A stretch of 64,000 bases of DNA from a phage. The first letter of the stretch is position 1. Each line of letters starts with the position of its first letter. The position numbers were made by a program, and so were the translations under genes. Positions 21,127 to 31,895 of the stretch are shown piece by piece. A model generated the notes under the pieces. That model searched no databases, was not told where the DNA came from, and saw only the letters and a program-made list of their open reading frames with translations. Location: the sequence record PX092659.1; one strand, 5' to 3'.

Positions 21127-21141
21127 TATTTAAGATAAAAG

Positions 21142-21807: not shown

Positions 21808-21828
21808 AATGGGCTCCTCCCCTTAATA

Positions 21829-22821
21829 TTAAGCCGGCAGTTTAGCCTGCAGACCAGCCAGAGTCTGAGTGATAGCACCAAGACTTACAGCGATTTGATT
21901 AATTACCTGACCGTTAGCACCGTTACCCGCAGCGATTGCTTCACGTAGGCGACATGCATCTAACTCATCCTGAATACGAGCAGTAGTTACACCAGCGATA
22001 GCAGTCTGAAGTTCACAGCAACATTCAGCGATCTGACGTTCCAGAGAGTTCTGGTTAGCACACATCTGAGCCTGAACAGCGGCAAACTGGTTATTAGTTT
22101 GTAAAGTCTGCTGGAAAGCGATCTGTGCAGAATCAAACTTATCTTGTGCACGAGCTATCTGATTAGCTGCGAAAGATTGATCAATCTGGCGAGAAAGATC
22201 GAACTGACCCTGAATAACGTTGCGAGTTTCCTGACAGATCTGATTAGACAGATTAGCACCTGTACCATAGATCGTAGTTAGTACAGACTGAGTATCACGG
22301 CTCTGGTTTTGGGATGTCTGGCTAAACCCATTGTTAACTGCGCTTAAAACAGCTCCAGTACCCTGGTTAGCTTCTGTACGAGTAGTGTTAATAGCTGCTA
22401 GAATACTAGCGGTATCTTGGTTCTGAAGTACTGCATCAACTGCGGTACCATCACCAACTACACCACGTCCACCGAATCCACCGAAACCACCGAATCCGCC
22501 TGTTAATAGAGCACCGATTAGGATAGCTCCGAATAGTCCCATACCTTCACCACCGAAAGCACCTGCGTTTGCTGGGTAACCACCCAGTAGGCCAGGGAAG
22601 CCACTAGTAAATACGTTTACTGGTTCTTGCATTTTATGTTTTCCATATTTATGACAATGTTCATCGTCATCTTCTTCATCATCGTGTTCACGATGTTTTT
22701 CTTCGTAGGCTCTGACCTTCTCCCACTTTTTCTTATCTGATTCCTCGTGACGGTGCAGTTCTGCTGCAACGCTAGCGACGGTCTCAGGACTCTTAGCTAC
22801 TTCTTCTGTCATTTTTGACAC
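21829..22821 (-). CDS. membrane protein with His/acidic N-terminus and glycine-zipper TM segment (330 aa)
   Basis: GAILIGALLTGGFGGFGGFGG segment then Q/N/A/T-rich domain with CCC motif; RBS AGGAGG upstream on minus strand. Confidence 0.55.
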   Translation of the reverse strand: MSKMTEEVAKSPETVASVAAELHRHEESDKKKWEKVRAYEEKHREHDDEEDDDEHCHKYGKHKMQEPVNVFTSGFPGLLGGYPANAGAFGGEGMGLFGAILIGALLTGGFGGFGGFGGRGVVGDGTAVDAVLQNQDTASILAAINTTRTEANQGTGAVLSAVNNGFSQTSQNQSRDTQSVLTTIYGTGANLSNQICQETRNVIQGQFDLSRQIDQSFAANQIARAQDKFDSAQIAFQQTLQTNNQFAAVQAQMCANQNSLERQIAECCCELQTAIAGVTTARIQDELDACRLREAIAAGNGANGQVINQIAVSLGAITQTLAGLQAKLPA

Positions 22822-23018
22822 CTCCTAGTATATAGAAAATGTGTGTCTCTTTGATCACTCATCCATAACATATACTTTACACTACCCCAGCGAAAATGTC
22901 AAGGGGTCTTTAAAAATTGCCCCTGAATTTTTAGTGGGGTCACAAATTTTGGTCCTCACCATTTATCTGCTATCCTTAAGTGCCCTATGATTTTCCTCTA
23001 AAAAGTTAAAAAATTTGA

Positions 23019-23047
23019 TTGCTTGAATGCTAAATTCTCTGTATAAT
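23019..23047 (+). promoter_or_regulatory. T5-type promoter
   Basis: TTGCTT-17-TATAAT. Confidence 0.65.
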
Positions 23048-23077
23048 ATATCTATAAATTTGAAAGAGGAACCAAAT

Positions 23078-23596
23078 ATGAATGTTGATGAGCTAACACA
23101 GCACCTCTTATCTAGAGGATTTGATACAGATAAATATCATTGCTGGTTAAGTCCGGAAGGATGGCTAACAGTCCCGTTGTATGACTTCTCTGGGATGTTG
23201 AGGGGCTATCAAACTTATAATCCTTCTGCTCCAAAAGGTCATGGTAAGTGCCCCTTTGAAGCTAAATACTTTACTTATTCTACTACCCAGTGTGTATGGG
23301 GACTAGAAACTCTCAATGGAGATGAAAAAGTAGTATTGATTGCTGAATCTGTATTTAAGGCAGTTGCGTTACATAATGCTGGTTATCCAGCCCTAGCAAT
23401 GTTGGGTTCTTCTCCAGGAAAAGCGTTATTAAAGCAACTGAAATTACTACCTTTTAAATTGGTAGCTGTCGGAGATAATGATCCTGCGGGTGAAAAATTT
23501 GCTAGAAAATTAAACGGCTTTGTTTCTCCCGTAGATGTGGATGAGATGTCTACCGAAAACTTGAAAAATTTTCTTGCTATGAAGCTAAATTTCTAA
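23078..23596 (+). CDS. small Toprim-domain-like protein
   Basis: Start MNVDELTQ after GAGG RBS; VVLIAESVFKA...LVAVGDNDPAGEKF resembles Toprim E...DxD. Confidence 0.5.
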   Translation: MNVDELTQHLLSRGFDTDKYHCWLSPEGWLTVPLYDFSGMLRGYQTYNPSAPKGHGKCPFEAKYFTYSTTQCVWGLETLNGDEKVVLIAESVFKAVALHNAGYPALAMLGSSPGKALLKQLKLLPFKLVAVGDNDPAGEKFARKLNGFVSPVDVDEMSTENLKNFLAMKLNF

Positions 23597-23602
23597 TATA
23601 AT
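23574..23602 (+). promoter_or_regulatory. T5-type promoter embedded in the 3' end of the upstream CDS
   Basis: TTGCTA-17-TATAAT directly upstream of tRNA-Ser/tRNA-Met. Confidence 0.6.
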
Positions 23603-23617
23603 ATATCTTATAAATTC

Positions 23618-23706
23618 GGAAGAATAGCATAACGGTATTGCAGCAGATTGCTAATCTGTCGGCTTGAAATATAGCCTTGTGGGTTCGATTCCCACTTCTT
23701 CCGCCA
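23618..23706 (+). tRNA. tRNA-Ser (anticodon GCT), class II
   Basis: Acceptor ggaagaa/ttcttcc, anticodon loop ttgctaa, long variable arm, T-arm gtggg-ttcgatt-cccac, CCA. Confidence 0.75.
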
Positions 23707-23712
23707 AACATA

Positions 23713-23787
23713 GGGTCGGTAGCTTAAAGTTAAAGCGGTGGCCTCATAAGCTAACGAGTAGGAGTTAGATTCTCCTCCGACCCACCA
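23713..23787 (+). tRNA. tRNA with CAT anticodon (Met, fMet or Ile-lysidine)
   Basis: Acceptor gggtcgg/ccgaccc, anticodon loop ctcataa, T-loop ttagatt, CCA. Confidence 0.65.
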
Positions 23788-23801
23788 ATTAGGTACTGCG
23801 T

Positions 23802-24203
23802 ATGGAAAAGGTTGAATTTGAGTACTTTGGAGTTATTTTAATTGTACACTTAAATGGTACAATAGAAACTAAAGATAGAATAATAACACAACGAAATCAA
23901 TATGGCGAGTATACTAGAACTATAAAAGGAAAGGTACTGTCTCCACGTTGCAATGGTAAATCTGGGTATTTTCAGGTGAAGATTTGCAATAAGGGATTAG
24001 GTAAAAATGAGTATGTGCACAGACTCGTATGGATGGCTTTCAACGGTGAAATACCGGAAGGCTATGAAATAGAGCACAAAGATGATGATAAGTCTAATAA
24101 TGCTTTACCTAACCTAGAATTATTCACAAGAAAGCAGAATATGGACAAAGTCTTAAATAAGATGACTAGAGATTCTCTAGGTCGTTTTGAAAAACTTAAC
24201 TAG
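23802..24203 (+). CDS. HNH homing endonuclease
   Basis: VHRLVWMAFNGEIPEGYEIEHKDDDKSNN...NLELFTRKQN (HNH_3-type). Confidence 0.7.
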   Translation: MEKVEFEYFGVILIVHLNGTIETKDRIITQRNQYGEYTRTIKGKVLSPRCNGKSGYFQVKICNKGLGKNEYVHRLVWMAFNGEIPEGYEIEHKDDDKSNNALPNLELFTRKQNMDKVLNKMTRDSLGRFEKLN

Positions 24204-24211
24204 GAGACTAT

Positions 24212-24397
24212 ATGTCTAAGTTTCAAGAACTCAAGCAAGAGCTAGAAGAATGTGCCTGCCCTGAGTGTAGAGGAATTGGTGAAAGTTCTGATGCAGAAGC
24301 AGGAGATACTTTTTGCAATATCTGGGTTTGCCCAACTTGCAATGGTACAGGTATTAATCCTAACTGCGGTATTTCCCTAGATATTGAGCGAGGATAA
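24212..24397 (+). CDS. small zinc-ribbon protein (61 aa)
   Basis: CxxC...CxxC (CPEC...CPTC). Confidence 0.45.
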   Translation: MSKFQELKQELEECACPECRGIGESSDAEAGDTFCNIWVCPTCNGTGINPNCGISLDIERG

Positions 24398-24498
24398 TAC
24401 CTGTGAAACTAAAAGATTATTATATTGGTTGGTTTGTGGGACTAGTAGTAGTATTTTCACTAGGCTATAATATGTATCAACTAATAAACTGATTACAT

Positions 24499-24575
24499 GG
24501 GGGTGTAATCGAATTGGCATAGGTACTGGACTTAAAATTCAGGTTTTGTGGGTTCGAATCCCACCACCCCTACCA
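24499..24575 (+). tRNA. tRNA with TAA anticodon (Leu by anticodon) but class I architecture
   Basis: Acceptor gggggtg/cacccct, anticodon arm ctgga-cttaaaa-ttcag, 5-nt variable loop, T-arm gtggg-ttcgaat-cccac, CCA. Confidence 0.55.
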
Positions 24576-24590
24576 AATTAAGGAAATAAG

Positions 24591-24758
24591 ATGTATAGAC
24601 ATCCACCTCCGCCAACACGTCGTTCCAGAGAAGTTATCCTCATGGAGTTGACTAAAAACTTCAAGGCAACTCTTGAAGATAGAGATTTAGGCACGGATGA
24701 AGACATTGATTTTATTTGTAGACTATTAAAGATGAAACTGGAGAAACAACATGGCTAA
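24591..24758 (+). CDS. small hypothetical protein (55 aa)
   Basis: ATG after AAGGAAA; below ORF-track cutoff. Confidence 0.3.
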   Translation: MYRHPPPPTRRSREVILMELTKNFKATLEDRDLGTDEDIDFICRLLKMKLEKQHG

Positions 24759-24957
24759 TCCTGAAATTACCGCACAACGTTTCATGCTTAAAGGCATGAT
24801 TGCTGAAGCAGGTATGACTCAAGAGGTTGCAGACTTTCATAAGCAATTTCTTGATATTATAACTCTAGCTAAAGAGACTGGAGAAAAAGAACACGGAGCA
24901 GCAATTATGGCTATATCTCTTATTAGTCTAGACTTGGCTGAAGAATCTGGAGTTTAG
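24751..24957 (+). CDS. hypothetical protein (68 aa)
   Basis: ORF in plus-strand array. Confidence 0.45.
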   Translation: MANPEITAQRFMLKGMIAEAGMTQEVADFHKQFLDIITLAKETGEKEHGAAIMAISLISLDLAEESGV

Positions 24958-24977
24958 CTCCTCCAAACAGAATTTTT

Positions 24978-25007
24978 AAAAATGTACTTGCCTTTTGCTT
25001 TAAATTT
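24978..25007 (+). promoter_or_regulatory. T5-type promoter
   Basis: TTGCCT-18-TATAAT. Confidence 0.55.
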
Positions 25008-25047
25008 CTGATATAATAGTTATATAAATTGATGAAGGAGTTAACGA

Positions 25048-25323
25048 ATGCAAAATCGTGTTATAGCAGCTGGTATTGAAAGTGCAATCTGTAAATCCTG
25101 GGAAGGCTGGGAAGGTGAGATTGAATGGCTTTATTTCTATGATGTAGAACTTCTGCCGGAAGTTAAAGCTAAATGTGTTGAAGCTGGCATGGCTCCAGAT
25201 GCAAAAGCTGATATTGATATTTCAATGTCTGAACTTAAAGGTCGTGTAATTACTGTTAGTGATGAGGGCGAAGAAGTCTTCGAACTTCCATTCTCCTTAA
25301 TTGTCACTCCTAAGTTCGACTAA
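25048..25323 (+). CDS. hypothetical acidic protein (91 aa)
   Basis: ORF with GGAG RBS. Confidence 0.5.
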   Translation: MQNRVIAAGIESAICKSWEGWEGEIEWLYFYDVELLPEVKAKCVEAGMAPDAKADIDISMSELKGRVITVSDEGEEVFELPFSLIVTPKFD

Positions 25324-25359
25324 CTAATACAGCACTGAGCAAGTTCTTTAAAATTTGAC

Positions 25360-25389
25360 TTGCTCAGTGCTATAAAACTTGATATAATA
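25360..25389 (+). promoter_or_regulatory. T5-type promoter overlapping a terminator-like inverted repeat
   Basis: TTGCTC-18-TATAAT; 13-bp inverted repeat agcactgagcaag/cttgctcagtgct (25331-25370) spans the -35. Confidence 0.55.
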
Positions 25390-25520
25390 GTTATCTAATT
25401 TGGAAAGTTCTTTTTAAGGTAGTTCCTACTTTAGTAGAGTAAATTTTTGGCAGATGGCCCCACCATTTTACCGATAACTCCTAGTCAGTGCGGCAACACT
25501 GGCTACCTTAAAGAGAATTT

Positions 25521-25608
25521 GGGCGTTTATTCCGTAAGTGGTAGCGGAGGGGATTGTAAATCCCTGGTCATTGCGACTCGAGTGGTTCGACTCCATTAAC
25601 GCCCACCA
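25521..25608 (+). tRNA. tRNA-Tyr (anticodon GTA), class II
   Basis: Acceptor gggcgtt/aacgccc, anticodon arm gggga-ttgtaaa-tccct, long variable arm, CCA. Confidence 0.75.
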
Positions 25609-25615
25609 AATTTAA

Positions 25616-25692
25616 GTCCTGTTAGACAAACGGGTAAAGTCACTACCCTTTCAAGGTAGGATTTGCGGGTTCGATCCCCGCACAGGACGCCA
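25616..25692 (+). tRNA. tRNA-Glu (anticodon TTC)
   Basis: Acceptor gtcctgt/acaggac, anticodon arm ctacc-ctttcaa-ggtag, T-arm gcggg-ttcgatc-cccgc, CCA. Confidence 0.75.
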
Positions 25693-25701
25693 ATTTCTGC
25701 A

Positions 25702-25777
25702 TTCCTAGAGTGTTACTGGACAGCATGTCGGTCTCCAAAACCGTACGGTCTAGGTTCGAGTCCTAGTAGGTTTGCCA
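25702..25777 (+). ncRNA. tRNA-like element (anticodon arm compatible with CCA/Trp; acceptor stem defective)
   Basis: T-arm ctagg-ttcgagt-cctag plus encoded GCCA end, but only 3-5 of 7 acceptor pairs. Confidence 0.3.
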
Positions 25778-25783
25778 AAATTT

Positions 25784-25858
25784 GCACCTTTAGCTGAGAT
25801 GGATTAGCGCTTGCCTGAAGAGCTTGAGAGGTTCGTTCGATACGAACAGGGTGCACCA
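25784..25858 (+). tRNA. tRNA with GAA anticodon (Phe?), weak anticodon stem
   Basis: Acceptor gcacctt/agggtgc, T-arm gttcg-ttcgata-cgaac, CCA; anticodon stem has two U-U mismatches. Confidence 0.45.
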
Positions 25859-25875
25859 AATTGAAGGAGCTGCTG

Positions 25876-26148
25876 ATGCATCCTGAAAACTTCTTTATTT
25901 ACTGCGCGGATAAGTCGCTGAAACGTAGAATTAACAAAGTCTATCATTATCGTGCTAGTCAACAGCCTTATGTATATGCTTTTGACGGTGATCACATTCC
26001 ACTAGAACAATTATCTTGTGATTACATGATATTGAAGAACTTTGACGAGACGAAGATCTCAAGCGTTCATAATCGACAGAATCCCTTAACGTGGAAATAT
26101 AAGAAGAAAAAGAAAGGCATCAAATTCTTAAAAAATGTAGTTGCTTAG
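25876..26148 (+). CDS. hypothetical protein (about 90 aa)
   Basis: Listed ORF 25861..26148 trimmed to first ATG; ends inside next promoter. Confidence 0.4.
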   Translation: MHPENFFIYCADKSLKRRINKVYHYRASQQPYVYAFDGDHIPLEQLSCDYMILKNFDETKISSVHNRQNPLTWKYKKKKKGIKFLKNVVA

Positions 26149-26169
26149 TTTCTAAAAGTTCTGTATAAT
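26141..26169 (+). promoter_or_regulatory. T5-type promoter
   Basis: TTGCTT-17-TATAAT. Confidence 0.65.
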
Positions 26170-26217
26170 AATTACATAAATTGAACTGGAGAAGCAACAT
26201 GACAGAACAAGATAAAC

Positions 26218-26293
26218 CGACCGTTGGCTGAATGGCTTAGGCGAAGGATTGCAAATCCTTTTTATGTGAGTTCAAATCTCATGCGGTCGTCCA
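26218..26293 (+). tRNA. tRNA-Cys (anticodon GCA)
   Basis: Acceptor cgaccgt/gcggtcg, anticodon arm aagga-ttgcaaa-tcctt, T-arm gtgag-ttcaaat-ctcat, CCA. Confidence 0.75.
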
Positions 26294-26300
26294 AATTTTA

Positions 26301-26383
26301 GGGTCGTTAGCCAAGCGGTTTGGCGGCGGATTGTTAATCCGTGTCGAAAGACAACGTAGGTTCGAATCCTACACGGCCCGCCA
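26301..26383 (+). tRNA. tRNA with GTT anticodon (Asn by anticodon) and a 13-nt variable arm
   Basis: Acceptor gggtcgt/acggccc, D-stem gcca/tggc, anticodon arm gcgga-ttgttaa-tccgt, variable arm gtcgaaagacaac, CCA. Confidence 0.6.
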
Positions 26384-26485
26384 AATTCTGTGTAGAGTTA
26401 AGTAAACCGGTAGCCAACCAGCTATCATTGCTGACATCGAATTCAGCCACAGATACCATTTTCATTAATAACTGAGGAAACAAGC

Positions 26486-26671
26486 ATGTCCAAGAATGTA
26501 ATTGCGCAGCTAGAAGTTCATCGTGATAGCACTATTAACAATATTGAAGTTGAAAAGAAATACATCGAAGAACTTAAACACGATATACTAGTAAGTCTCA
26601 ATCGTCTTAATGTACGAAAAGAGTTTCTTAAAGAACTTAATGCAGCTATTGAAAAACTCAAAGCTGAGTAA
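26486..26671 (+). CDS. hypothetical protein (61 aa)
   Basis: ORF with GAGGAAA RBS. Confidence 0.45.
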   Translation: MSKNVIAQLEVHRDSTINNIEVEKKYIEELKHDILVSLNRLNVRKEFLKELNAAIEKLKAE

Positions 26672-26680
26672 ATGAATTAT

Positions 26681-26757
26681 GCGACCGGGGCTGGCTTGGT
26701 AATGGTACTCCCCTGTCACGGGAGAGAATGTGGGTTCGAATCCCATCGGTCGCGCCA
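26681..26757 (+). tRNA. tRNA-Asp (anticodon GTC)
   Basis: Acceptor gcgaccg/cggtcgc, anticodon arm ctccc-ctgtcac-gggag, T-arm gtggg-ttcgaat-cccat, CCA. Confidence 0.8.
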
Positions 26758-26774
26758 AATAAGGTAGGTTAGCT

Positions 26775-26927
26775 ATGGAATGTAGGGAGTTTACTCCAGA
26801 AGAGATAGAGCAGATAAAAGAATCTGCTATGAAAAATGCTAGAATATCTCTGTCACTGGAAGGTATCATTATTAGTGATGTAAACTTTGAAAAAATCAAA
26901 GCCATAGCTGATGAACTGGAAAAGTAA
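26775..26927 (+). CDS. small hypothetical protein (50 aa)
   Basis: ATG after AAGGTAGG; below ORF-track cutoff. Confidence 0.3.
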   Translation: MECREFTPEEIEQIKESAMKNARISLSLEGIIISDVNFEKIKAIADELEK

Positions 26928-26933
26928 TTTAAT

Positions 26934-27009
26934 ACATCCATAGCTCAATGGTTAGAGCTACCGCCTCTTAAGCGGAGGGTTCTAGGTTCAAGTCCTAGTG
27001 GGTGTACCA
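26934..27009 (+). tRNA. tRNA-Lys (anticodon CTT)
   Basis: Acceptor acatcca/tgggtgt, D-stem gctc/gagc, anticodon loop ctcttaa (one A-A mismatch at stem base), T-arm ctagg-ttcaagt-cctag, CCA. Confidence 0.55.
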
Positions 27010-27034
27010 AATTAATTTAGTATGAGAATATACT

Positions 27035-27382
27035 ATGCGTAATGCTAAAGAAGAGCTGTTACTCGCCTTAAAAAATACCAATTCTAAAGTTAAGTGTATT
27101 AAAATAGAATTTGGGTATTATGGGGACAAAAAAGTCTGGGTATTACCTTTAGGTTATACAGAAGAAGACATTGAGGGGTTTCTTAATAACCTAGACTTTG
27201 AATATGATTCTGGATACGGTGGACAATTACTTTATGGTAATGTATGGTTTGCCGATGGAACTTGGCTAGAACGTGGGGAATATGATGGTGCTGAGTGGTG
27301 GGAATACAAGGCTACACCAGCAATCCCAGAGGAATGCCGAACAATTAATGGTGAAGTAGATAATACTTTACGGTTAAACTAA
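27035..27382 (+). CDS. hypothetical protein (115 aa)
   Basis: ORF in plus-strand array. Confidence 0.5.
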   Translation: MRNAKEELLLALKNTNSKVKCIKIEFGYYGDKKVWVLPLGYTEEDIEGFLNNLDFEYDSGYGGQLLYGNVWFADGTWLERGEYDGAEWWEYKATPAIPEECRTINGEVDNTLRLN

Positions 27383-27504
27383 TAAAATTTCAGTGCAGAA
27401 CACGGAGCTAGCAATTCGGAAGTGCTGACTCATGATAAGCTGCCTATGTACTTGCAAAGCGGTCGTGTCCAAGACTCGGACTCTTGCACTGAAAACAATC
27501 AAAC

Positions 27505-27623
27505 ATTCTAGCGTGGTTGATGGGGAAACCAGCTTGGCTAGGGCAGAAGCTCGTTCGATTCGAGTGAAAGAATGGTTCTCGTAAGTCCGCACAAGTGATA
27601 GCAGGTTCGAGTCCTGTCTAGAA
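27505..27623 (+). ncRNA. tRNA-like RNA with a ~105-nt body
   Basis: 7-bp acceptor-like helix attctag/ctagaat closing a region that ends with canonical T-arm gcagg-ttcgagt-cctgt. Confidence 0.3.
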
Positions 27624-27774
27624 TGATACTATAAAGTTTACTTATTGAGTAGGTTCCGATAGATCGGCGGGTCTATTCTGGCAGTTAAGAGAGGTCTCGC
27701 AAACTTCTTTGTCAGCCGTGGGGTTGGTAGCCTCCAGGTGGCCTACACAATAAGTAAATTTATTAAAAATTCAT

Positions 27775-27803
27775 TTGCTATTTCGCTTAATTCTCGGTAT
27801 AAT
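27775..27803 (+). promoter_or_regulatory. T5-type promoter
   Basis: aaaaattcaTTTGCTA-17-TATAAT. Confidence 0.7.
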
Positions 27804-27835
27804 ATATCTTATAAAGTGTTGAGAAGGAAAGCAAA

Positions 27836-28033
27836 ATGAAAAAAGTTTTACTGCTGTCTGTATTCCTACTTACTGGTTGTTTTAAACTTGACTCAACCAT
27901 TAATAAAGAGTATGAATTTGCTAAAAATTTCTGTGGCGGAGAGAGTAATATAAAGAATTTCTACATATATAGTACAATTCCTAGTACCGTTTATTGTGTA
28001 GACGGACGAATTATTAATATTCCTCCACAATAA
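27836..28033 (+). CDS. small lipoprotein (65 aa)
   Basis: Signal peptide with lipobox LLTGC. Confidence 0.5.
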   Translation: MKKVLLLSVFLLTGCFKLDSTINKEYEFAKNFCGGESNIKNFYIYSTIPSTVYCVDGRIINIPPQ

Positions 28034-28042
28034 AAGAATTAA

Positions 28043-28118
28043 CAGTGCGTAGCGCAGTTGGTAGCGTGGGAGCCTTGGATGCTTCGGGTCGCAGGTTCGA
28101 GTCCTGCCGCACTGACCA
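28043..28118 (+). tRNA. tRNA-Pro (anticodon TGG)
   Basis: Acceptor cagtgcg/cgcactg, anticodon arm ggagc-cttggat-gcttc, T-arm gcagg-ttcgagt-cctgc, CCA. Confidence 0.8.
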
Positions 28119-28124
28119 AACAAT

Positions 28125-28202
28125 TGCGGGTTAGATCTCTGGTAGAGATCGCTAGTCTCATAAGCTAGAAAGAGGTAGGTTCGATTCCTGCACCCGCTTC
28201 CA
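28125..28202 (+). tRNA. tRNA with CAT anticodon (Met, fMet or Ile-lysidine), U-U mismatch at 1:72
   Basis: Acceptor tgcgggt/acccgct, D-stem gatc/gatc, anticodon arm ctagt-ctcataa-gctag, T-arm gtagg-ttcgatt-cctgc, CCA. Confidence 0.6.
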
Positions 28203-28222
28203 TTTTAATAGAGGGTTTCGAA

Positions 28223-28390
28223 ATGAAAGTATTTCGATTAGTAGTAAGTGACAAACGTTTAGGTAAGAATACCTCAAAATCCTTACTTGCTCATTATGGA
28301 AAAGATGAGAAAGAAGTAATGGCGGAGTTTGGGATTAATCACCCTTACTTGAAAGTTCACTCTATTAAAGAAGTATATAATGGTTACTAA
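28223..28390 (+). CDS. small hypothetical protein (55 aa)
   Basis: ATG after GAGGG; between tRNA genes; below ORF-track cutoff. Confidence 0.3.
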   Translation: MKVFRLVVSDKRLGKNTSKSLLAHYGKDEKEVMAEFGINHPYLKVHSIKEVYNGY

Positions 28391-28391
28391 T

Positions 28392-28470
28392 AGATCGCTA
28401 GCTCAATAGGTTTAGTAGCATCCGACTTTTAATCGGAAGGTTCTGGGTTCGAGTCCCAGGCGATCTACCA
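28392..28470 (+). tRNA. tRNA-Lys (anticodon TTT)
   Basis: Acceptor agatcgc/gcgatct, anticodon arm tccga-cttttaa-tcgga, T-arm ctggg-ttcgagt-cccag, CCA. Confidence 0.75.
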
Positions 28471-28488
28471 ATTTCAAGAAAAACGCAG

Positions 28489-28517
28489 TTGCTTAATGCG
28501 TAATTTCTTGTTACAAT
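28489..28517 (+). promoter_or_regulatory. T5-type promoter
   Basis: TTGCTT-17-TACAAT; drives a non-coding transcript. Confidence 0.6.
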
Positions 28518-28745
28518 ATTTATATAAATTGATGAGGAGAAATCCTCGTCATAGTTCACTAAGGTATTAGCTCGACCTAGGACTGGCTGCCAAAAAGCAC
28601 GATCCCTACGATTCGGGAGAAGTTCTAGATTAGTCCACTAGATTCAGCGGCAACTGAATAGTGTATCGGGTTTGCGAGATGACGCGGTTCCTTCCGCTCG
28701 AAGCGAAGGTGCTGTAGTTACGCCGAGCTAATAGCCTTAGTAAAC

Positions 28746-28820
28746 TAAAGAATTTGGGCGAATAGTGTCAGCGGGAGCACACCAGACTTGCAATCTGGTA
28801 GGGAGGGTTCGAGTCCCTCT
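28746..28820 (+). tRNA. tRNA-Ala (anticodon TGC)
   Basis: Acceptor gggcgaa/tttgtcc (G-U pairs), anticodon arm ccaga-cttgcaa-tctgg, T-arm gaggg-ttcgagt-ccctc, CCA. Confidence 0.75.
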
Positions 28821-28825
28821 TTGTC

Positions 28826-28902
28826 CACCAAATACGCGTGATTGATGGAATTGGCATACATACCGTCCTTAGAAGTCGGGTTTTGAGGGTTCGAATCCCT
28901 TG
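28826..28902 (+). tRNA. tRNA with TAG anticodon (Leu by anticodon) but class I architecture
   Basis: Acceptor gcgtgat/gtcacgc, anticodon arm ccgtc-cttagaa-gtcgg (one mismatch), 5-nt variable loop, T-arm gaggg-ttcgaat-ccctt, CCA. Confidence 0.55.
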
Positions 28903-29014
28903 TCACGCACCAAATTTGATGGTCAGAGTAAATTAAACCTACTATCTCGGTTGAGCTGTTTTAATGGGTTCGAATCCCAGCGAGGCGTAACTGCCTGGCG
29001 TGATAGAGGCATCA

Positions 29015-29105
29015 TCTTATTACTGGAAGAGCAAATCGAATTGGCGACGAAAACCGCTTGGAAAGTGGCTGACTGGTAAAACGGCTTGAGAGTTCAAATC
29101 TCTCC
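29015..29105 (+). tRNA. tRNA-Ser (anticodon GGA), class II
   Basis: Acceptor ggaagag/ctcttcc, anticodon loop ttggaaa, ~18-nt variable arm, T-arm gagag-ttcaaat-ctctc, CCA. Confidence 0.65.
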
Positions 29106-29134
29106 TCTTCCGCCAAACACTTGAGGTAATAATA

Positions 29135-29482
29135 ATGTTAGCAAAAGATAAAGCTCTAGAGTTTTTAGCATCTTTAGATGAAGATAAGATTATAGATGCT
29201 GCTGAAAAAGCTGGAATGCCCGATTTAACATATCTGGAACGTGCTATTATTGCTCGTGATAAACTACAGAAAGAGTTTGCTATTGCCCAGGAGGAGTTTT
29301 ATACTCGCTATAACGCTCTTACTAAGCAAATTGAAAATGAGTGTTCCCATACTTGGGGAGTAACAGAAAACCTAGGTAATGATCACGATGGCTGGTCTAA
29401 AGTAAAAATTACCTACTATCATCGTAGGACTTGTAAAATTTGTGGAAAAGTAGAAGATTTCACTAGTACGAGTGACTATTAG
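29135..29482 (+). CDS. hypothetical protein (115 aa), C-terminal zinc-ribbon-like
   Basis: CSHTW...CKIC motif; RBS TGAGGTAA. Confidence 0.5.
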   Translation: MLAKDKALEFLASLDEDKIIDAAEKAGMPDLTYLERAIIARDKLQKEFAIAQEEFYTRYNALTKQIENECSHTWGVTENLGNDHDGWSKVKITYYHRRTCKICGKVEDFTSTSDY

Positions 29483-29495
29483 TATAATAAATACT

Positions 29496-29585
29496 AGAAG
29501 ATAGGACGTAGTGGTACGTAACTGGTCTTGAAAACCAGCCCGCTGTAGCGATACGGTGATGGTTCGACTCCATTATCTTCTGCCA
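29496..29585 (+). tRNA. tRNA-Ser (anticodon TGA), class II
   Basis: Acceptor agaagat/atcttct, anticodon arm ctggt-cttgaaa-accag, long variable arm, T-arm gatgg-ttcgact-ccatt, CCA. Confidence 0.8.
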
Positions 29586-29605
29586 ATTAACTATAAGGAA
29601 GTCTT

Positions 29606-29779
29606 ATGAGCAAAACAGTTACTGTAACAATGAAGGACGGTAAAAAATTTAAAGCATGTCTTCATGAAACAGATAAGGGGTGGATGGCTTATTTGCCACA
29701 CCTAGATTCCACCGGGTACGGAATGACCCAACGTGAAGCTATTGTTGATGCTTTAAATGAGGCTTCTGCTGGTTTATAA
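29606..29779 (+). CDS. small HicB/UPF0150-like protein (57 aa)
   Basis: GWMAYLPHLDSTGYGMTQREAIVDALNEA resembles HicB-fold antitoxins; RBS AAGGAAG; no HicA partner seen. Confidence 0.4.
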   Translation: MSKTVTVTMKDGKKFKACLHETDKGWMAYLPHLDSTGYGMTQREAIVDALNEASAGL

Positions 29780-30148
29780 AAAATTCTTGAAGTATGCCGG
29801 AATCGGTAGACGGGGCTGCCTAAAAGGTTTATAGGGAACATCCACTCCCTGCAACATACCTCATAAAGCGGCTGAGATAAATGGTCTATCTCGTGAAGGT
29901 TCAAGTCCTTCTGCTTCTTGATACATCTATGGCTCAAAGTGTAACGGTGCTATTTGATGCTCTTGGTAAGACTTCCCCGACATGCGTTCGGGAGTAAGCT
30001 GCTAAGACTAGAGTAGAAGAGTTTCTGAGAGCCGCCACAATTGAAAATTCGTACTCGTCTTGAGCTGCGTGCAATAGGAGATAACTTGATTAGTATTCTA
30101 GAACATGCTAATTGAGGATGGTTTCGCTAACCCTGCGAGTTTTCAATT

Positions 30149-30225
30149 GTGGCTATATCATAATTGGTTAATGATCCTGATTGTGAATCAGGCCTATGTG
30201 GATTCGAATTCCACTAGCCACCCCA
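30149..30225 (+). tRNA. tRNA-His (anticodon GTG)
   Basis: Acceptor gtggcta/tagccac, D-stem tcat/atga, anticodon arm cctga-ttgtgaa-tcagg, T-arm gtgga-ttcgaat-tccac, discriminator C, CCA; position -1 is T not G. Confidence 0.7.
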
Positions 30226-30250
30226 AATTAACTTAAATAGGAAATAAAAT

Positions 30251-30448
30251 ATGGCTGATTTCTGCAAACAATGCTCCATTGATATGTGGGGCAGAGATAC
30301 TGGTGATCTTTCTGGTTTGATTACAGAAGCTGAGGTCAAAGAAGGTTATGGTGCAGTTGTGATTTGCGAAGGATGCGGAGTTATTCGAGTAGATCATGAA
30401 GGCAAACGTTTAAAAGAACCGGAAAACTTAGGAGAAACAAATGAGTAA
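30251..30448 (+). CDS. small zinc-ribbon protein (65 aa)
   Basis: CKQC...CEGC motif. Confidence 0.45.
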   Translation: MADFCKQCSIDMWGRDTGDLSGLITEAEVKEGYGAVVICEGCGVIRVDHEGKRLKEPENLGETNE

Positions 30449-30677
30449 TGCTTTAATTAGTGAAATTATGTTAACACGTCTTGCAGAACTGCAAACTCTT
30501 CGAGATGAATCTCAGAATAACTTAGCCTATCATAAACAGATGGTAGATACTCTTACTACTCGTATTGAAACTTACGAGCGTGATATTGCAGCATTACAGG
30601 CTCTTTTCTCAGTATCAGCACCAGATACTTTAGAGCAGCCTGTTGTATCTCAGCCAGTAGAAACAGCATCTAGTTAA
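30441..30677 (+). CDS. hypothetical protein (78 aa)
   Basis: Start overlaps upstream stop. Confidence 0.45.
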   Translation: MSNALISEIMLTRLAELQTLRDESQNNLAYHKQMVDTLTTRIETYERDIAALQALFSVSAPDTLEQPVVSQPVETASS

Positions 30678-30686
30678 TAGCATTTT

Positions 30687-30762
30687 TGGAGTGTAGATCA
30701 ATTGGCAGATCGTCGGCCTCTGACTCCGAAGGTTCCTGGTTCGATCCCAGGCACTCCAGCCA
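30687..30762 (+). tRNA. tRNA-Gln (anticodon CTG)
   Basis: Acceptor tggagtg/cactcca, anticodon loop ctctgac, T-arm cctgg-ttcgatc-ccagg, CCA. Confidence 0.7.
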
Positions 30763-30768
30763 AATAAT

Positions 30769-30844
30769 TGGAGAGTAGTGTAACGGTTAGCACAACGGCC
30801 TTTGACTCCGTTAATGGTAGGTTCGATTCCTCCTTCTCCAGCCA
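30769..30844 (+). tRNA. tRNA-Gln (anticodon TTG)
   Basis: Acceptor tggagag/ttctcca, anticodon loop ctttgac, T-loop ttcgatt, CCA; near-duplicate of the previous gene. Confidence 0.7.
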
Positions 30845-30852
30845 AGTAATAA

Positions 30853-30928
30853 GCGGTTAAGCACACGGGTTGTGTCGCAGGCCTTCCAAGCCTCGCTGAG
30901 TAGGGTTCGATTCCCTCTAGCCGCTCCA
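30853..30928 (+). tRNA. tRNA-Gly (anticodon TCC)
   Basis: Acceptor gcggtta/tagccgc, D-stem caca/tgtg, anticodon loop cttccaa, T-loop ttcgatt, CCA; some stem mismatches. Confidence 0.6.
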
Positions 30929-30944
30929 ACTTTAAGGAAACGTT

Positions 30945-31196
30945 ATGCACGTTTTTGAGTTTCGTAATAAAAGTACCGATAAACGAGTTATTGTTATTGG
31001 AGAAACATACCGAGCATACGAACAAACTGACGGCTCTGTCATCCTGAATGATGAGAAAGGAGGTTTTAGCTTTTATCCAGAAGAACCTTATGAAGAGTTT
31101 CGAAAACAATTTAACCTAGACTGGAGAAAGCATTTAAACACTGTTGCTTCATCTGTAGTATTGCCAACTACCAGTACTGTACTATCTAATGGCTGA
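30945..31196 (+). CDS. hypothetical protein (83 aa)
   Basis: ORF with AAGGAAA RBS. Confidence 0.45.
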   Translation: MHVFEFRNKSTDKRVIVIGETYRAYEQTDGSVILNDEKGGFSFYPEEPYEEFRKQFNLDWRKHLNTVASSVVLPTTSTVLSNG

Positions 31197-31353
31197 TAAC
31201 CTAAAAGTCAAGATCGACAAACAAAAGAAACGTGTAGAAGTAGAGATTGGTGAAGAACGTGTAGCCTTCACCTTTGAATTCCTACAACAAATGGCAATGG
31301 TAGTTATGACTGATAAGTCTCCTGTTATTGAAAAAGAAATCCCGTTGAAATAA
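31189..31353 (+). CDS. small hypothetical protein (54 aa)
   Basis: ATG overlapping upstream stop; followed by hairpin cccgtt-gaaata-acggg. Confidence 0.35.
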   Translation: MADNLKVKIDKQKKRVEVEIGEERVAFTFEFLQQMAMVVMTDKSPVIEKEIPLK

Positions 31354-31363
31354 CGGGATCATC

Positions 31364-31438
31364 GCTCCTAAAGCATTGCTGGCGATGCAGTTGCCTTGTA
31401 AGCATCTGAACCGGGTTCGATTCCTGGTGGGAGCACCA
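31364..31438 (+). tRNA. tRNA-Thr (anticodon TGT)
   Basis: Acceptor gctccta/tgggagc, D-stem gcat/atgc, anticodon loop cttgtaa, T-arm ccggg-ttcgatt-cctgg, CCA. Confidence 0.65.
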
Positions 31439-31453
31439 AATTTAAAAATTCAT

Positions 31454-31482
31454 TTGCTTTCTCTCTTATTTATTGTTATAAT
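31454..31482 (+). promoter_or_regulatory. T5-type promoter
   Basis: aaaaattcaTTTGCTT-17-TATAAT. Confidence 0.7.
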
Positions 31483-31512
31483 ATTTATATAAATTAATGA
31501 GAGGGAAACCAA

Positions 31513-31803: not shown

Positions 31804-31818
31804 TGTAAATATTTTAAT

Positions 31819-31895
31819 GCTTCGGTAGCTTAGCGATCTAAAGCACTCGGCTGATAACCGAGAGATCGGGGGTTTAAATCCCTCCCGGAGTACCA
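31819..31895 (+). tRNA. tRNA-Ile (anticodon GAT)
   Basis: Acceptor gcttcgg/ccggagt, D-stem gctt/aagc, anticodon arm ctcgg-ctgataa-ccgag, T-arm ggggg-tttaaat-ccctc, CCA. Confidence 0.8.

What the first reader, a model, noticed from the sequence alone, without database searches (positions are those of the whole stretch)
24499..28902. Atypical tRNA architectures: class I tRNAs with Leu anticodons and a long-variable-arm tRNA with an Asn anticodon
By manual folding, the tRNAs at 24499-24575 (TAA) and 28826-28902 (TAG) have 5-nt variable loops although Leu tRNAs are normally class II. The tRNA at 26301-26383 has a 13-nt variable arm but anticodon GTT. Either my folds are off or these are unusual phage tRNAs whose charging identity may not follow the anticodon.
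Basis: seen in the sequence. Interest (0 to 1): 0.5.

Follow-up and report, generated by a model that had tools for sequence, protein, structure and literature searches.

The report
Odd-shaped Leu and Asn phage tRNAs
A T5-like phage carries two leucine tRNAs that lack the usual long extra arm and an asparagine tRNA that has gained one; they look like working tRNAs that still match their anticodons, and both shapes prove common in phages, the long-armed asparagine type apparently undescribed.

Summary

The window is a T5-like phage tRNA cluster. The suggestion that charging may not follow the anticodon is not supported. Both Leu tRNAs keep every E. coli LeuRS determinant, and the identical BF23 gene is annotated as becoming an effective amber suppressor. 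The Asn tRNA keeps GUU plus G73 and an almost host-identical anticodon arm.

New context:
- Reference T5 has canonical versions in the same slots, so these are alternative alleles, and the atypical ones are in the majority.
- Both shapes recur across phages: 5/25 Asn tRNAs are long and 28/77 Leu tRNAs are short in an arm-blind viral sample.
- I collected 72 distinct long-arm Asn tRNAs. The arm helix covaries.
- In cellular genomes they were rare and sat in dense tRNA arrays.

Why the shape differs is inferred, not shown: synthetase tolerance, possibly combined with escape from tRNA-cutting defence nucleases. I found no description of the long-arm Asn class in the searchable literature.

The parts
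24499..24575 (+). tRNA-Leu(UAA), 77 nt with encoded CCA. Class I-shaped, with a 5-nt variable loop GUUUU at 24543-24547, a 3-bp D stem plus Leu-type D loop AAUUGGCAUA, and A73.
   Evidence: ARAGORN; Rfam 57.4 bits with alignment; comparison with E. coli leuZ; 326 phage records at >=95% identity.
28836..28912 (+). tRNA-Leu(UAG), 77 nt with encoded CCA. Class I-shaped, with a 5-nt variable loop GUUUU at 28880-28884, the same Leu-type D arm, A73, and a U30-U40 mismatch in the anticodon stem.
   Evidence: ARAGORN; Rfam 47.5 bits with alignment; 100% identical to BF23 tRNAL1, annotated as an effective amber suppressor after anticodon replacement.
26301..26383 (+). tRNA-Asn(GUU), 83 nt with encoded CCA. 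Class II-shaped, with a 4-bp D stem GCCA/UGGC, an anticodon arm equal to E. coli asnT except C32U, G73 and G1-C72.
   Evidence: ARAGORN; Rfam 58.4 bits with alignment; comparison with asnT; 270 phage records at >=95% identity.
26343..26355 (+). Variable arm of the Asn tRNA: GUC-GAAA-GAC hairpin followed by unpaired AAC. C48 can pair with G15.
   Evidence: Sequence; CM insertion; across 38 relatives all 4 arm-helix pairs change on both sides and 93.3% of cells are paired; same length, same GUC/GAC stem and same 3-nt 3' tail as the E. coli tyrU arm CGUCACAGACUUC.
20010..32067 (+). The surrounding T5-type tRNA gene cluster: 24 tRNAs by default ARAGORN; Gly(UCC) 30853-30928 and Ser(GGA) 29025-29115 appear at relaxed thresholds. 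Small ORFs and structured RNAs are interspersed.
   Evidence: synteny with slur09, T5 and BF23 annotation.

Best explanation
The three genes are genuine, functional elongator tRNAs in the tRNA cluster of a T5-like (Tequintavirus) phage. They are most likely charged by the host synthetase that matches their anticodon.

Leu tRNAs. They are Leu tRNA bodies in which the 13-15-nt arm is replaced by a 5-nt loop. E. coli LeuRS reads A73 and the D-loop/elbow geometry (A14, A15-U48, G18G19, A20a), not the arm or the anticodon, so they stay Leu acceptors and read UUR and CUN-type codons.

Asn tRNA. It carries an extra 3-bp/GAAA hairpin in the variable region. AsnRS reads G34 U35 U36 and G73, all present, so it stays an Asn acceptor.

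Alleles. These shapes are interchangeable alleles, not one-off accidents. T5 has canonical versions in the same slots, all four allele combinations exist among T5-like phages, and both shapes recur widely in phage tRNA clusters.

Shown: the structures, the conserved identity elements, covariation, the allele distribution, and suppressor activity of the identical BF23 Leu body as annotated in its record.

Inferred: the amino acid attached, and the reason for the shape. The most likely reason is that the cognate synthetases tolerate these variable regions. That lets phage tRNA bodies drift or be selected away from host-like shapes, spread by recombination and homing-endonuclease-linked cassette exchange, and possibly gain protection from tRNA-cleaving host defences.
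For: Structure.

Phage identity: the window matches 573 T5-like phage records.

Leu determinants: D arm AUCG-AAUUGGCAUA-GGU and AUGG-AAUUGGCAUA-CAU versus E. coli GUGG-AAUCGGUAGA-CAC and GCGA-AAUUGGUAGA-CGC; U48 and A73 in both. The rules come from PMC9976931.

Function of the short-arm Leu: BF23 tRNAL1 is 100% identical to 28836-28912 (H218) and is annotated 'replacement of the anticodon with CUA sequence converts this tRNA into effective amber suppressor'.

Asn determinants: GUU, G73, and an anticodon arm GCGGA-UUGUUAA-UCCGU versus asnT GCGGA-CUGUUAA-UCCGU. G73 is an antideterminant for LeuRS and TyrRS.

Family-wide conservation: of 72 long-arm GUU tRNAs, 69 have G73 and 44 have U1-A72. Of 47 short-arm Leu tRNAs, at least 45 have A73 and 45 have U48.

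Covariation: 16 of 20 cloverleaf pairs are compensatory. All 4 arm-helix pairs are compensatory, and 96.6% of cells pair versus 32-49% when the partners are slid.

Alleles: T5 has an 85-nt class II Leu(UAG) and a 78-nt class I Asn in the same slots. Records at >=95% identity: long Asn 270 vs canonical 132; short Leu(UAG) 162 vs class II 52.

Precedent for phage tRNAs as defence countermeasures.
Against: No aminoacylation or tRNA-seq data for these alleles were available.

The suppressor note does not say which amino acid is inserted, and CUA suppressors are often mischarged with Gln or Lys (my own knowledge).

E. coli LeuRS failed to charge the type I tRNA-Leu(CAA) of Streptomyces coelicolor (PMC6614811), so loss of the arm is not automatically tolerated.

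Class II synthetases such as AsnRS approach tRNA from the variable-loop side (my own knowledge), so an added arm could interfere.

The T5 record's note that tRNA-Asn does not convert to a suppressor concerns the canonical allele, not the long-arm one.

The long-arm Asn also has G1-C72, G2-C71, C11-G24 and G73. By my own recollection these overlap the E. coli Ser identity set; only G73 on tRNA-Ser is confirmed by a source I read.
Confidence: 0.72

Rival explanations
1. Architecture-level escape from host defences. The changed variable region is itself the adaptive feature. On tRNA-Asn the extra arm sits at the base of the anticodon stem and hinders nucleases that cut that stem, such as TOPRIM enzymes like P2-OLD and PARIS AriB. 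On tRNA-Leu, loss of the arm removes a handle used by some nuclease that recognises class II shape. This adds to the best explanation rather than replacing it.
For: P2-OLD cleaves E. coli tRNA-Asn(GUU) after nt 28 and nt 40 at a paired CNG motif, and AriB cuts tRNA-Lys between 40 and 41 (PMC12445682 and PMC11464382).

E. coli asnT has CGG/CCG at those positions.

Both phage Asn alleles differ from the host in or next to this stem. T5's canonical allele has GCAUC/GUUGA, with no CNG and two mismatches. The common long-arm allele has UGG/CCA. This window's allele keeps CGG/CCG but has the arm.

In the arm-blind sample 4/4 long-arm Asn tRNAs keep the paired CNG motif, against 7/29 short phage Asn tRNAs. 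My own hypergeometric estimate is about 0.008, not corrected for relatedness.

Phage tRNAs rescue infection from PARIS, P2-OLD, retron-Eco7 and PrrC170.
Against: No nuclease assay exists for any long-arm Asn or short-arm Leu tRNA.

The SP15 long-arm tRNA-Asn did not rescue from PrrC170, but it was only a control for a Lys-specific nuclease.

Known resistance determinants map to the anticodon stem-loop, not to the variable region.

I found no defence nuclease specific for tRNA-Leu or for class II shape in bacteria. The prokaryotic Schlafen studied cuts T-loops of 28 E. coli tRNAs.

The CNG association could simply reflect common descent of the long-arm family.
Confidence: 0.25
2. Neutral cassette polymorphism driven by homing endonucleases. 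The atypical and canonical genes are functionally equivalent. They persist because mobile endonuclease genes in the tRNA region repeatedly replace neighbouring tRNA genes by co-conversion, so the shape has no selective meaning.
For: In T5 and BF23 the canonical Asn allele is overlapped by an ORF (T5.069) with T5orf172/MUG113 domains, and T5's class II Leu(UAG) abuts the HNH endonuclease hegC. The atypical alleles in the window lack these ORFs: there are 7 nt between Cys and Asn.

Alleles assort independently. T5, BF23, HMD-P4/Lindwurm/SSP1 and this window show all four combinations.

The long-arm Asn also occurs at about 80% identity in unrelated ~165-kb Klebsiella/Enterobacter phages, and the short-arm Leu occurs in FelixO1-like phages.
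Against: This explains the spread, not why a covarying arm helix is maintained across at least 72 diverse sequences. It also does not explain why Asn is so much more affected than most other class I tRNAs: 0/65 Arg, 0/21 His, 0/21 Asp and 0/33 Glu are long in the arm-blind sample.

I did not test endonuclease target sites.
Confidence: 0.3
3. Identity mismatch. The long-arm GUU tRNA is charged by a synthetase that recognises class II tRNAs (SerRS or TyrRS), or the short-arm Leu-anticodon tRNAs are charged with something other than Leu, so some codons would be ambiguously decoded during infection.
For: The Asn tRNA's arm has the same length, the same GUC/GAC stem and the same 3-nt 3' tail as E. 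coli tRNA-Tyr, and it shares G34 and U35 with tRNA-Tyr.

Its G1-C72, G2-C71, C11-G24 and G73 overlap Ser-type features (the Ser identity set is from my own knowledge).

Precedents exist for V-arm tRNAs whose charging ignores the anticodon: nematode nev-tRNAs (PMC3333845) and allo-tRNAs (PMC5389517).
Against: G73 is an antideterminant for TyrRS and LeuRS.

The 13-nt arm is shorter than the Ser arms examined here: about 19-21 nt in the phage's own tRNA-Ser, about 20 nt in serU.

G73 and the bacterial Asn-type U1-A72 dominate the family.

Phages that are otherwise about 95% identical carry either allele, so the two alleles must deliver a compatible amino acid.

The Leu tRNAs lack a long arm (so not Ser) and lack G3-U70 (so not Ala), and they keep the full Leu set.
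Confidence: 0.05
4. Non-translational RNAs or decaying genes. The odd shapes mark pseudogenes, nuclease decoys or regulatory tRNA-like RNAs rather than decoding tRNAs.
For: The T5 tRNA region does contain several tRNA-like and stable RNAs of unknown function (RNA1, RNA2, RNA3 and others), and one T5 tRNA is flagged as a pseudogene.
Against: All four standard helices and the extra arm keep pairing through compensatory changes. Anticodons, discriminators, T loops and encoded CCA are conserved. CM scores are well above the gathering threshold. The identical BF23 Leu body works as a suppressor on the ribosome.
Confidence: 0.05

Closest known systems
BF23 tRNAL1 (tRNA-Leu UAG) of the classic T5 relative BF23, record NC_042564
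   Same: 100% identical over all 77 nt to window 28836-28912. Same slot after tRNA-Ala. Annotated as an effective amber suppressor after anticodon replacement.
   Different: Nothing in sequence. The record does not comment on the missing long arm or name the inserted amino acid.
Type I tRNA-Leu(CAA) of Streptomyces coelicolor and mitochondrial tRNA-Leu (PMC6614811)
   Same: [quoted passage not shown]
   Different: The phage tRNAs keep the E. coli-type Leu D arm and work in an E. coli host. The Streptomyces type I tRNA was not charged by E. coli LeuRS. The anticodons differ (UAA, UAG). The phage genes are mobile alleles found in many phage families.
Bacterial class II tRNA-Tyr (E. coli tyrU)
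   Same: 13-nt variable arm with a GUC/GAC stem and three unpaired 3' bases ending in C48; G34 and U35; anticodon loop differing only at position 36.
   Different: U36 rather than A36; G73 rather than A73; a 4-bp D stem with a 7-nt loop rather than the 3-bp stem and long loop of tRNA-Tyr. Nearest-neighbour identity to any Tyr tRNA is only about 0.72-0.76.
Canonical bacterial tRNA-Asn (E. coli asnT) and the canonical T5 tRNA-Asn
   Same: GUU anticodon, G73, A37, G15-C48; the anticodon arm is almost identical to asnT; same genomic slot as T5's tRNA-Asn.
   Different: An 8-nt longer variable region forming a hairpin; G1-C72 instead of U1-A72; no overall sequence relationship to T5's allele.
Non-canonical V-arm tRNAs: nematode nev-tRNAs (PMC3333845) and bacterial/phage allo-tRNAs (PMC5389517)
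   Same: A long variable arm on a tRNA whose anticodon belongs to a normally class I amino acid.
   Different: Those carry the identity elements of Leu or Ser and are charged regardless of the anticodon; allo-tRNAs have 8/4 or 9/3 acceptor/T stems. Here the stems are 7/5, the discriminator and anticodon match Asn, and the arm is short.
Nuclease-resistant phage tRNAs (T5 tRNA-Lys vs PARIS; phage tRNA-Thr vs P2-OLD; T5-family tRNA-Tyr vs retron-Eco7)
   Same: Same phage family and gene cluster. Phage copies differ from the host tRNA while keeping the anticodon. Host tRNA-Asn is a documented P2-OLD substrate.
   Different: Known resistance maps to anticodon stem-loop substitutions. No role for the variable region has been shown, and none of the three tRNAs here has been tested.

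Membership tests
tRNA (Rfam RF00005) | Covariance-model score above the gathering threshold with a full-length cloverleaf | tested here: met
   57.4, 47.5 and 58.4 bits versus 29, model positions 1-71 of 71; ARAGORN agrees.
tRNA (functional gene rather than pseudogene) | Helices maintained by compensatory substitutions among relatives | tested here: met
   For the Asn family, 16/20 pairs are compensatory in an independent RNAalifold run, and 22/25 pairs show a change on both sides with 96.6% of cells paired. For Leu there is diversity with conserved architecture, but I ran no formal count.
Type I (class I-shaped) tRNA-Leu | Leu anticodon with a 4-5-nt variable loop | tested here: met
   UAA and UAG anticodons with variable loop GUUUU.
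Type I (class I-shaped) tRNA-Leu | Leu identity elements for the host LeuRS: A73, A14, A15-U48, G18G19, A20a | tested here: met
   All are present in both tRNAs, in the same D-arm register as E. coli leuZ/leuW; rules from PMC9976931.
Type I (class I-shaped) tRNA-Leu | Leucylation by LeuRS | not testable with these tools
   Only indirect evidence: the identical BF23 tRNA is annotated as an effective amber suppressor. E. coli LeuRS did not charge a Streptomyces type I tRNA-Leu.
Class II (long variable arm) tRNA | Variable region longer than 10 nt that forms a helix | tested here: met
   13 nt, GUC-GAAA-GAC plus AAC; the helix covaries in relatives.
tRNA-Asn | G34 U35 U36 and G73, the E. coli AsnRS identity set | tested here: met
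   rule from PMC9976931. G73 in 69/72 family members.
tRNA-Asn | Charging with Asn | not testable with these tools
   I found no assay. The T5 record's suppressor note concerns the canonical allele.
tRNA-Ser-like identity | Long variable arm of Ser length (16 nt or more, stem of 5 bp or more; my own knowledge) | tested here: not met
   13 nt with a 3-bp stem, versus about 19-21 nt in this phage's own tRNA-Ser and about 20 nt in E. coli serU.
tRNA-Tyr-like identity | A73 discriminator and GUA anticodon | tested here: not met
   G73 and GUU. The review table lists G73 on E. coli tRNA-Ser as an antideterminant against TyrRS.
allo-tRNA | 8/4 or 9/3 acceptor/T-stem configuration | tested here: not met
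   7-bp acceptor and 5-bp T stems in all three tRNAs; definition from PMC5389517.
Nuclease-resistant phage tRNA | Same anticodon as a host tRNA that a defence nuclease cleaves | tested here: met
   E. coli tRNA-Asn(GUU) is cleaved by P2-OLD. I found no equivalent target for Leu(UAA) or Leu(UAG).
Nuclease-resistant phage tRNA | Altered cleavage motif (paired CNG at 28-30 and 40-42) or shortened anticodon stem | tested here: not met
   The window's Asn keeps CGG/CCG and a full 5-bp stem. The commoner slur09-type long-arm allele has UGG/CCA, and T5's canonical allele has neither motif.
Nuclease-resistant phage tRNA | Demonstrated resistance to cleavage, or rescue of infection | not testable with these tools
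   The only reported use is of SP15's long-arm tRNA-Asn as a negative control for PrrC170.

The most novel reading that the evidence does not exclude
Switching structural class is a general phage counter-defence strategy. The covarying extra arm on phage tRNA-Asn shields the anticodon stem, and the loss of the arm on phage tRNA-Leu removes a recognition handle. The result is that host tRNA-cleaving immune nucleases cannot destroy these tRNAs, while the cognate synthetases, which ignore the variable region, still charge them. On this reading the long-arm tRNA-Asn would be a previously unrecognised, largely phage- and mobile-element-restricted tRNA class.
Probability: 0.2. Interest if true: 0.75.

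Novelty: new variant of a known kind. Interest (0 to 1): 0.5.

Why it matters
Textbook rules say that bacterial Leu tRNAs always have a long extra arm and Asn tRNAs never do. This window, and the survey it prompted, show that phages break both rules often, and in a structured, selected way, while apparently keeping the correct amino-acid identity.

This matters for four reasons:
1. It gives natural test cases for how much of a tRNA body LeuRS and AsnRS really read. That includes a conflict with the report that E. coli LeuRS charges only type II tRNA-Leu.
2. T5-like phages carry either the canonical or the atypical allele in otherwise near-identical genomes. That is a ready-made isogenic system for asking whether tRNA shape affects susceptibility to tRNA-cleaving defence systems such as PARIS, OLD, retron-Eco7 and PrrC.
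3. Annotation pipelines and isotype classifiers that assume class membership may mis-score such tRNAs.
4. Compact orthogonal-looking tRNA bodies are of interest for genetic-code engineering.

Tried and rejected
1. The 1970s-80s T5 tRNA papers (Scherberg and Weiss 1970; Chen et al. 1975), which might report Leu or Asn acceptance directly, are not held. My searches for Ksenzenko-group papers returned only citations.

2. Literature searches for a described long-arm tRNA-Asn or phage class I tRNA-Leu found nothing specific. This is absence from the held library only.

3. Recent capture from the host is rejected. No E. coli genome out of 5,426 has a match covering 80% or more of the Leu(UAA) or Asn gene.

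4. MAFFT plus RNAalifold did not recover the variable-arm helix because length variation scrambles that region. I solved this with a covariance model that includes the arm, with the caveat that such an alignment leans towards the model.

5. A first CM search at E<=1e-9 returned 268 mixed tRNAs and an unusable alignment, so I repeated it at a stricter cutoff.

6. Ancestry of the long-arm Asn from Tyr, Ser or Leu bodies is inconclusive. Nearest-neighbour identities are only 0.72-0.76 and are confounded by length, although some subfamilies have Leu-, Ser- or Tyr-like D arms.

7. Using T5's suppressor notes as evidence for the atypical alleles is rejected, because sequence comparison showed that T5 carries different, canonical genes in those slots.

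8. The prokaryotic Schlafen nuclease as a class II-specific threat is not supported. It cuts T loops of 28 E. coli tRNAs.

9. The 'tRNA amidotransferase' annotated beside the T5 cluster: the window homolog has only a sub-threshold YqeY-like match (20.8 bits versus a cutoff of 27), so I did not use it.

Full report
WHAT IS THERE

ARAGORN finds 24 tRNA genes, all on the + strand, between 20010 and 32067. They include tRNA-Leu(UAA) at 24499-24575, tRNA-Asn(GUU) at 26301-26383 and tRNA-Leu(UAG) at 28836-28912.

Rfam's tRNA covariance model scores the three at 57.4, 58.4 and 47.5 bits against a gathering score of 29. Both Leu tRNAs have the 5-nt variable loop GUUUU. The Asn tRNA has a 10-nt insertion in the variable region, so that region is 13 nt, GUCGAAAGACAAC: a GUC/GAC stem, a GAAA loop and three unpaired 3' bases.

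WHERE IT COMES FROM

The 4.8-kb stretch matches 573 phage records, nearly all T5-like phages of Salmonella and Escherichia, with best identities of 94-96%. A relative, slur09 (Tequintavirus), annotates the same three tRNAs with the same lengths.

Neither the Leu(UAA) gene nor the Asn gene has a counterpart in any of 5,426 complete E. coli genomes. They are phage genes, not recent host captures.

DO THE ANTICODONS PREDICT THE AMINO ACID?

I fetched E. coli K-12 leuZ, leuW, asnT, serU and tyrU and laid the sequences out arm by arm.

Leu tRNAs. The two phage Leu tRNAs have the E. coli tRNA-Leu D arm in the same register: a 3-bp stem, N13 and a 10-nt loop, AAUUGGCAUA against AAUUGGUAGA or AAUCGGUAGA. 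That gives A14, A15, G18G19 and A20a. The variable loop ends in U48, and the discriminator is A73. According to the identity review PMC9976931, E. coli leucine identity rests on A73, the A15-U48 Levitt pair, G18G19, A20a and the D/T-loop tertiary contacts. It does not rest on the anticodon or the long arm, and tRNA-Leu variants lacking the arm remain active. The only difference from a host tRNA-Leu that bears on class is that a 13-15-nt arm is replaced by five nucleotides.

Asn tRNA. Its anticodon arm is GCGGA-UUGUUAA-UCCGU, against GCGGA-CUGUUAA-UCCGU in asnT. It has G73 and a possible G15-C48 pair. E. coli asparagine identity is the three anticodon bases plus G73, and it can be transplanted into another tRNA body. 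The same review lists G73 of tRNA-Ser as an antideterminant against LeuRS and TyrRS. The 13-nt arm has the size and stem of E. coli tRNA-Tyr's arm (CGUCACAGACUUC) and is much shorter than the Ser arms examined.

Inspecting identity elements therefore supports Leu, Leu and Asn. This is inference, because no charging data for these alleles were available.

AN IMPORTANT CORRECTION FROM THE REFERENCE GENOMES

The curated T5 record carries experiment-based notes on each tRNA. However, T5 itself has different genes in these slots: an 85-nt class II tRNA-Leu(UAG) with a 13-nt arm, and a 78-nt class I tRNA-Asn with loop GGGUU. Both are unrelated in sequence to the window's genes, although the flanks are shared. 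T5 also lacks the Leu(UAA) gene. T5's notes therefore cannot be transferred to the window's alleles.

The BF23 record does help. Its tRNAL1 is 100% identical to window 28836-28912 (H218) and is annotated 'replacement of the anticodon with CUA sequence converts this tRNA into effective amber suppressor'. So this exact short-arm body is processed, charged independently of its anticodon and used by E. coli ribosomes.

BF23's tRNA-Asn is the canonical T5 type, so no comparable test covers the long-arm Asn. Azam et al. expressed the tRNA-Asn of phage SP15, which (H37) shows is the long-arm allele, only as a negative control for a Lys-specific PrrC.

ALTERNATIVE ALLELES

Counting phage records at 95% identity or more gives:
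- Long-arm Asn: 270 records. Of these, 40 are the window's type and 230 are a sub-allele with C28U, U32C and G42A.
- Canonical Asn: 132 records.
- Short-arm Leu(UAG): 162 records.
- Class II Leu(UAG): 52 records.
- Short-arm Leu(UAA): 326 records.

All four combinations of the Asn and Leu(UAG) alleles exist:
- This window: long Asn with short Leu.
- T5: both canonical.
- BF23: canonical Asn with short Leu.
- HMD-P4, Lindwurm and SSP1: long Asn with class II Leu.

In T5 and BF23 the canonical Asn gene is overlapped by an ORF with T5orf172/MUG113 domains, and T5's class II Leu abuts the HNH endonuclease hegC. The window's alleles have no such neighbours. Cassette exchange linked to homing-type endonucleases is a plausible way these alleles move.

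BEYOND T5-LIKE PHAGES

The long-arm Asn also occurs, full length at about 80% identity, in ~165-kb Klebsiella and Enterobacter phages. Matches spanning the arm occur in ~150-kb Escherichia phages and in Pseudomonas jumbo phages.

ARAGORN found 77 GUU tRNAs of 80 nt or more in those loci.

Across all loci I collected 72 distinct long-arm GUU tRNAs:
- Variable regions are 9-21 nt (mode 15), with stems of 2-6 bp and mostly GNRA or UUCG loops.
- G73 is present in 69 of 72.
- The bacterial Asn-type U1-A72 pair is present in 44 of 72.

The arm stems differ widely while keeping their pairing. After realignment with a covariance model that includes the arm, all four arm pairs show changes on both sides, with 93.3% of cells paired. 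The whole structure has 96.6% paired cells, against 32-49% when the partners are slid. An independent RNAalifold run recovers the four standard helices, with 16 of 20 pairs compensatory.

For a sample blind to arm length, I scanned IMG/VR for a generic T arm plus CCA and counted every tRNA in those loci:
- 5 of 25 Asn tRNAs are 80 nt or longer.
- 28 of 77 Leu tRNAs are shorter than 80 nt.
- None of 65 Arg, 21 His, 21 Asp, 33 Glu, 16 Val or 12 Trp tRNAs is long.

Short-arm Leu tRNAs number 47 distinct sequences with all six Leu anticodons, A73 in at least 45 and U48 in 45.

The same Asn pattern run on 185,579 species genomes gave mostly non-tRNA matches. Only five long GUU tRNAs turned up, three of them inside arrays of 11, 34 and 36 tRNAs within 8 kb. 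Ordinary chromosomal Asn tRNAs there are 75-76 nt.

WHY THE ODD SHAPES?

The minimal reading is tolerance. LeuRS and AsnRS do not read the variable region, so phage tRNA bodies are free to differ there.

A more interesting reading is that the shape helps against tRNA-cleaving defences. T5-family tRNAs are known to neutralise PARIS (tRNA-Lys), retron-Eco7 (tRNA-Tyr) and PrrC. [quoted passage not shown]

How the alleles compare at this motif:
- Host asnT has CGG/CCG there.
- T5's canonical allele has a mismatched stem with no CNG.
- The common long-arm allele has UGG/CCA.
- The window's allele keeps the host stem but has the arm emerging next to it.

In the arm-blind sample all 4 long-arm Asn tRNAs keep the paired motif, against 7 of 29 short phage Asn tRNAs. 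This is suggestive only: the numbers are small, the sequences are related, and no nuclease assay exists. I found no candidate nuclease for the Leu case; the prokaryotic Schlafen studied so far cuts T loops of 28 E. coli tRNAs.

COMPARISON WITH KNOWN THINGS

The short-arm Leu resembles the type I tRNA-Leu(CAA) of Streptomyces coelicolor and mitochondrial tRNA-Leu. That paper states that E. coli LeuRS charges only type II tRNA-Leu. The BF23 annotation suggests that a type I body with E. coli-type D-arm features is accepted in E. coli.

The long-arm Asn is not an allo-tRNA, because its stems are 7/5 rather than 8/4 or 9/3. It is not like nematode nev-tRNAs, which carry Leu identity. Here the discriminator and anticodon agree with Asn.

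My searches of the held literature found no description of a long-arm tRNA-Asn. That library lacks most subscription journals and the early T5 papers.

VERDICT

The genes are long-annotated members of the T5-family tRNA cluster, and one has been shown to function.

The added findings are moderately interesting and directly testable:
- The atypical genes are alleles alternating with canonical tRNAs.
- Both class switches recur across phages.
- The long-arm tRNA-Asn forms a diverse family with a covarying arm, found mainly in phages and tRNA arrays.

Noticed in passing
window 29788-29919: A 132-nt tRNA-like element with a Leu-type D arm (GCCGGAAUCGGUAGACGG) and T loop (UUCAAGU) but a greatly expanded anticodon-arm region. 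It scores 25.2 bits against Rfam tRNA (below threshold). By position it corresponds to T5 'RNA1, tRNA-like stable RNA with unknown functions'.
   Followed up: partly
window 27390-27760 and 28540-28750: Long structured non-coding stretches between tRNA genes. By synteny with the T5 and BF23 annotation they correspond to the stable RNAs RNA2/RNAIV and RNA2H, all annotated 'unknown functions'. ARAGORN at relaxed threshold calls a 68-nt tRNA-like element at 27506-27573.
   Followed up: partly
window 26384-26460: The stretch immediately downstream of the long-arm Asn gene corresponds to T5/BF23 'RNA3, putative tRNA-like RNA'. The downstream flank (CCAAATTCTGTGT) is shared between phages carrying the long-arm and the canonical Asn alleles.
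   Followed up: partly
window 30853-30928 and 29025-29115: tRNA-Gly(UCC) and tRNA-Ser(GGA) are missed by default ARAGORN and appear only at relaxed thresholds. Rfam assigns 30852-30925 to tRNA-Sec at 30.9 bits, below threshold. T5's Gly1 in the same slot is annotated as an effective suppressor, so it is probably functional but unusual. No tRNA-Val was found, although T5 and BF23 have one directly after tRNA-Lys(UUU).
   Followed up: partly
window 19435-19508: A weak tRNA-like hit (Rfam tRNA 30.7 bits, just above threshold; relaxed ARAGORN calls 'Ser(act)'). It lies in the region that T5 annotates as the 719-nt stable RNA 'RNAX' next to tRNA-Arg. ARAGORN finds the same element in T5.
   Followed up: no
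window 18727-19185 (+): A 152-aa ORF at the edge of the tRNA cluster, homologous by position to T5.081, which is annotated 'tRNA amidotransferase'. It has only a sub-threshold YqeY-like (GatB C-terminal, tRNA-binding) Pfam match: 20.8 bits versus a cutoff of 27. A possible small tRNA-binding protein.
   Followed up: partly
L364 (T5) 10007-10525 and 7023-7607; BF23 L366 4691-5209: In T5 and BF23 the canonical tRNA-Asn gene is overlapped at its 5' end by a T5orf172/MUG113-domain ORF, and T5's class II tRNA-Leu(UAG) abuts the HNH endonuclease hegC. The atypical alleles lack these neighbours, which suggests endonuclease-linked cassette exchange of tRNA alleles.
   Followed up: partly
IMG/VR loci L156, L198, L205, L212, L239: tRNAs of 90-94 nt with anticodon UAU (Ile) and a long variable arm containing a conserved CCAGAUUAG-type motif. 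They account for most of the 6/30 long 'Ile' tRNAs in the arm-blind viral sample and form a separate unusual class.
   Followed up: no
IMG/VR loci L125, L135, L158, L161, L165, L166, L173, L253 and others: Other normally class I tRNAs (Met, Gly, Thr, Pro, Lys, Gln, Cys) occasionally carry GNRA-capped variable-arm hairpins in phage tRNA clusters. In the Asn-pattern loci, 8/31 Cys and 7/44 Thr tRNAs are 80 nt or longer. Arm gain is therefore not restricted to Asn, though Asn, at 5/25, is among the most affected; only the separate UAU 'Ile' class (6/30) is as frequent.
   Followed up: partly
L267 (Verrucosispora sp. chromosome), L280 (Micromonospora craterilacus), L253 (Saprospiraceae MAG): Dense arrays of 34, 36 and 11 tRNA genes within 8 kb of cellular contigs. 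Each includes an 87-90-nt long-arm tRNA-Asn. L253 also has an 88-nt long-arm tRNA-Lys(UUU).
   Followed up: no
IMG/VR loci L007, L048, L050, L057, L067, L085, L092, L100, L106: Nine viral contigs encode both a long-arm and an ordinary 72-76-nt tRNA-Asn. The two forms can therefore coexist in one genome rather than always replacing each other.
   Followed up: no
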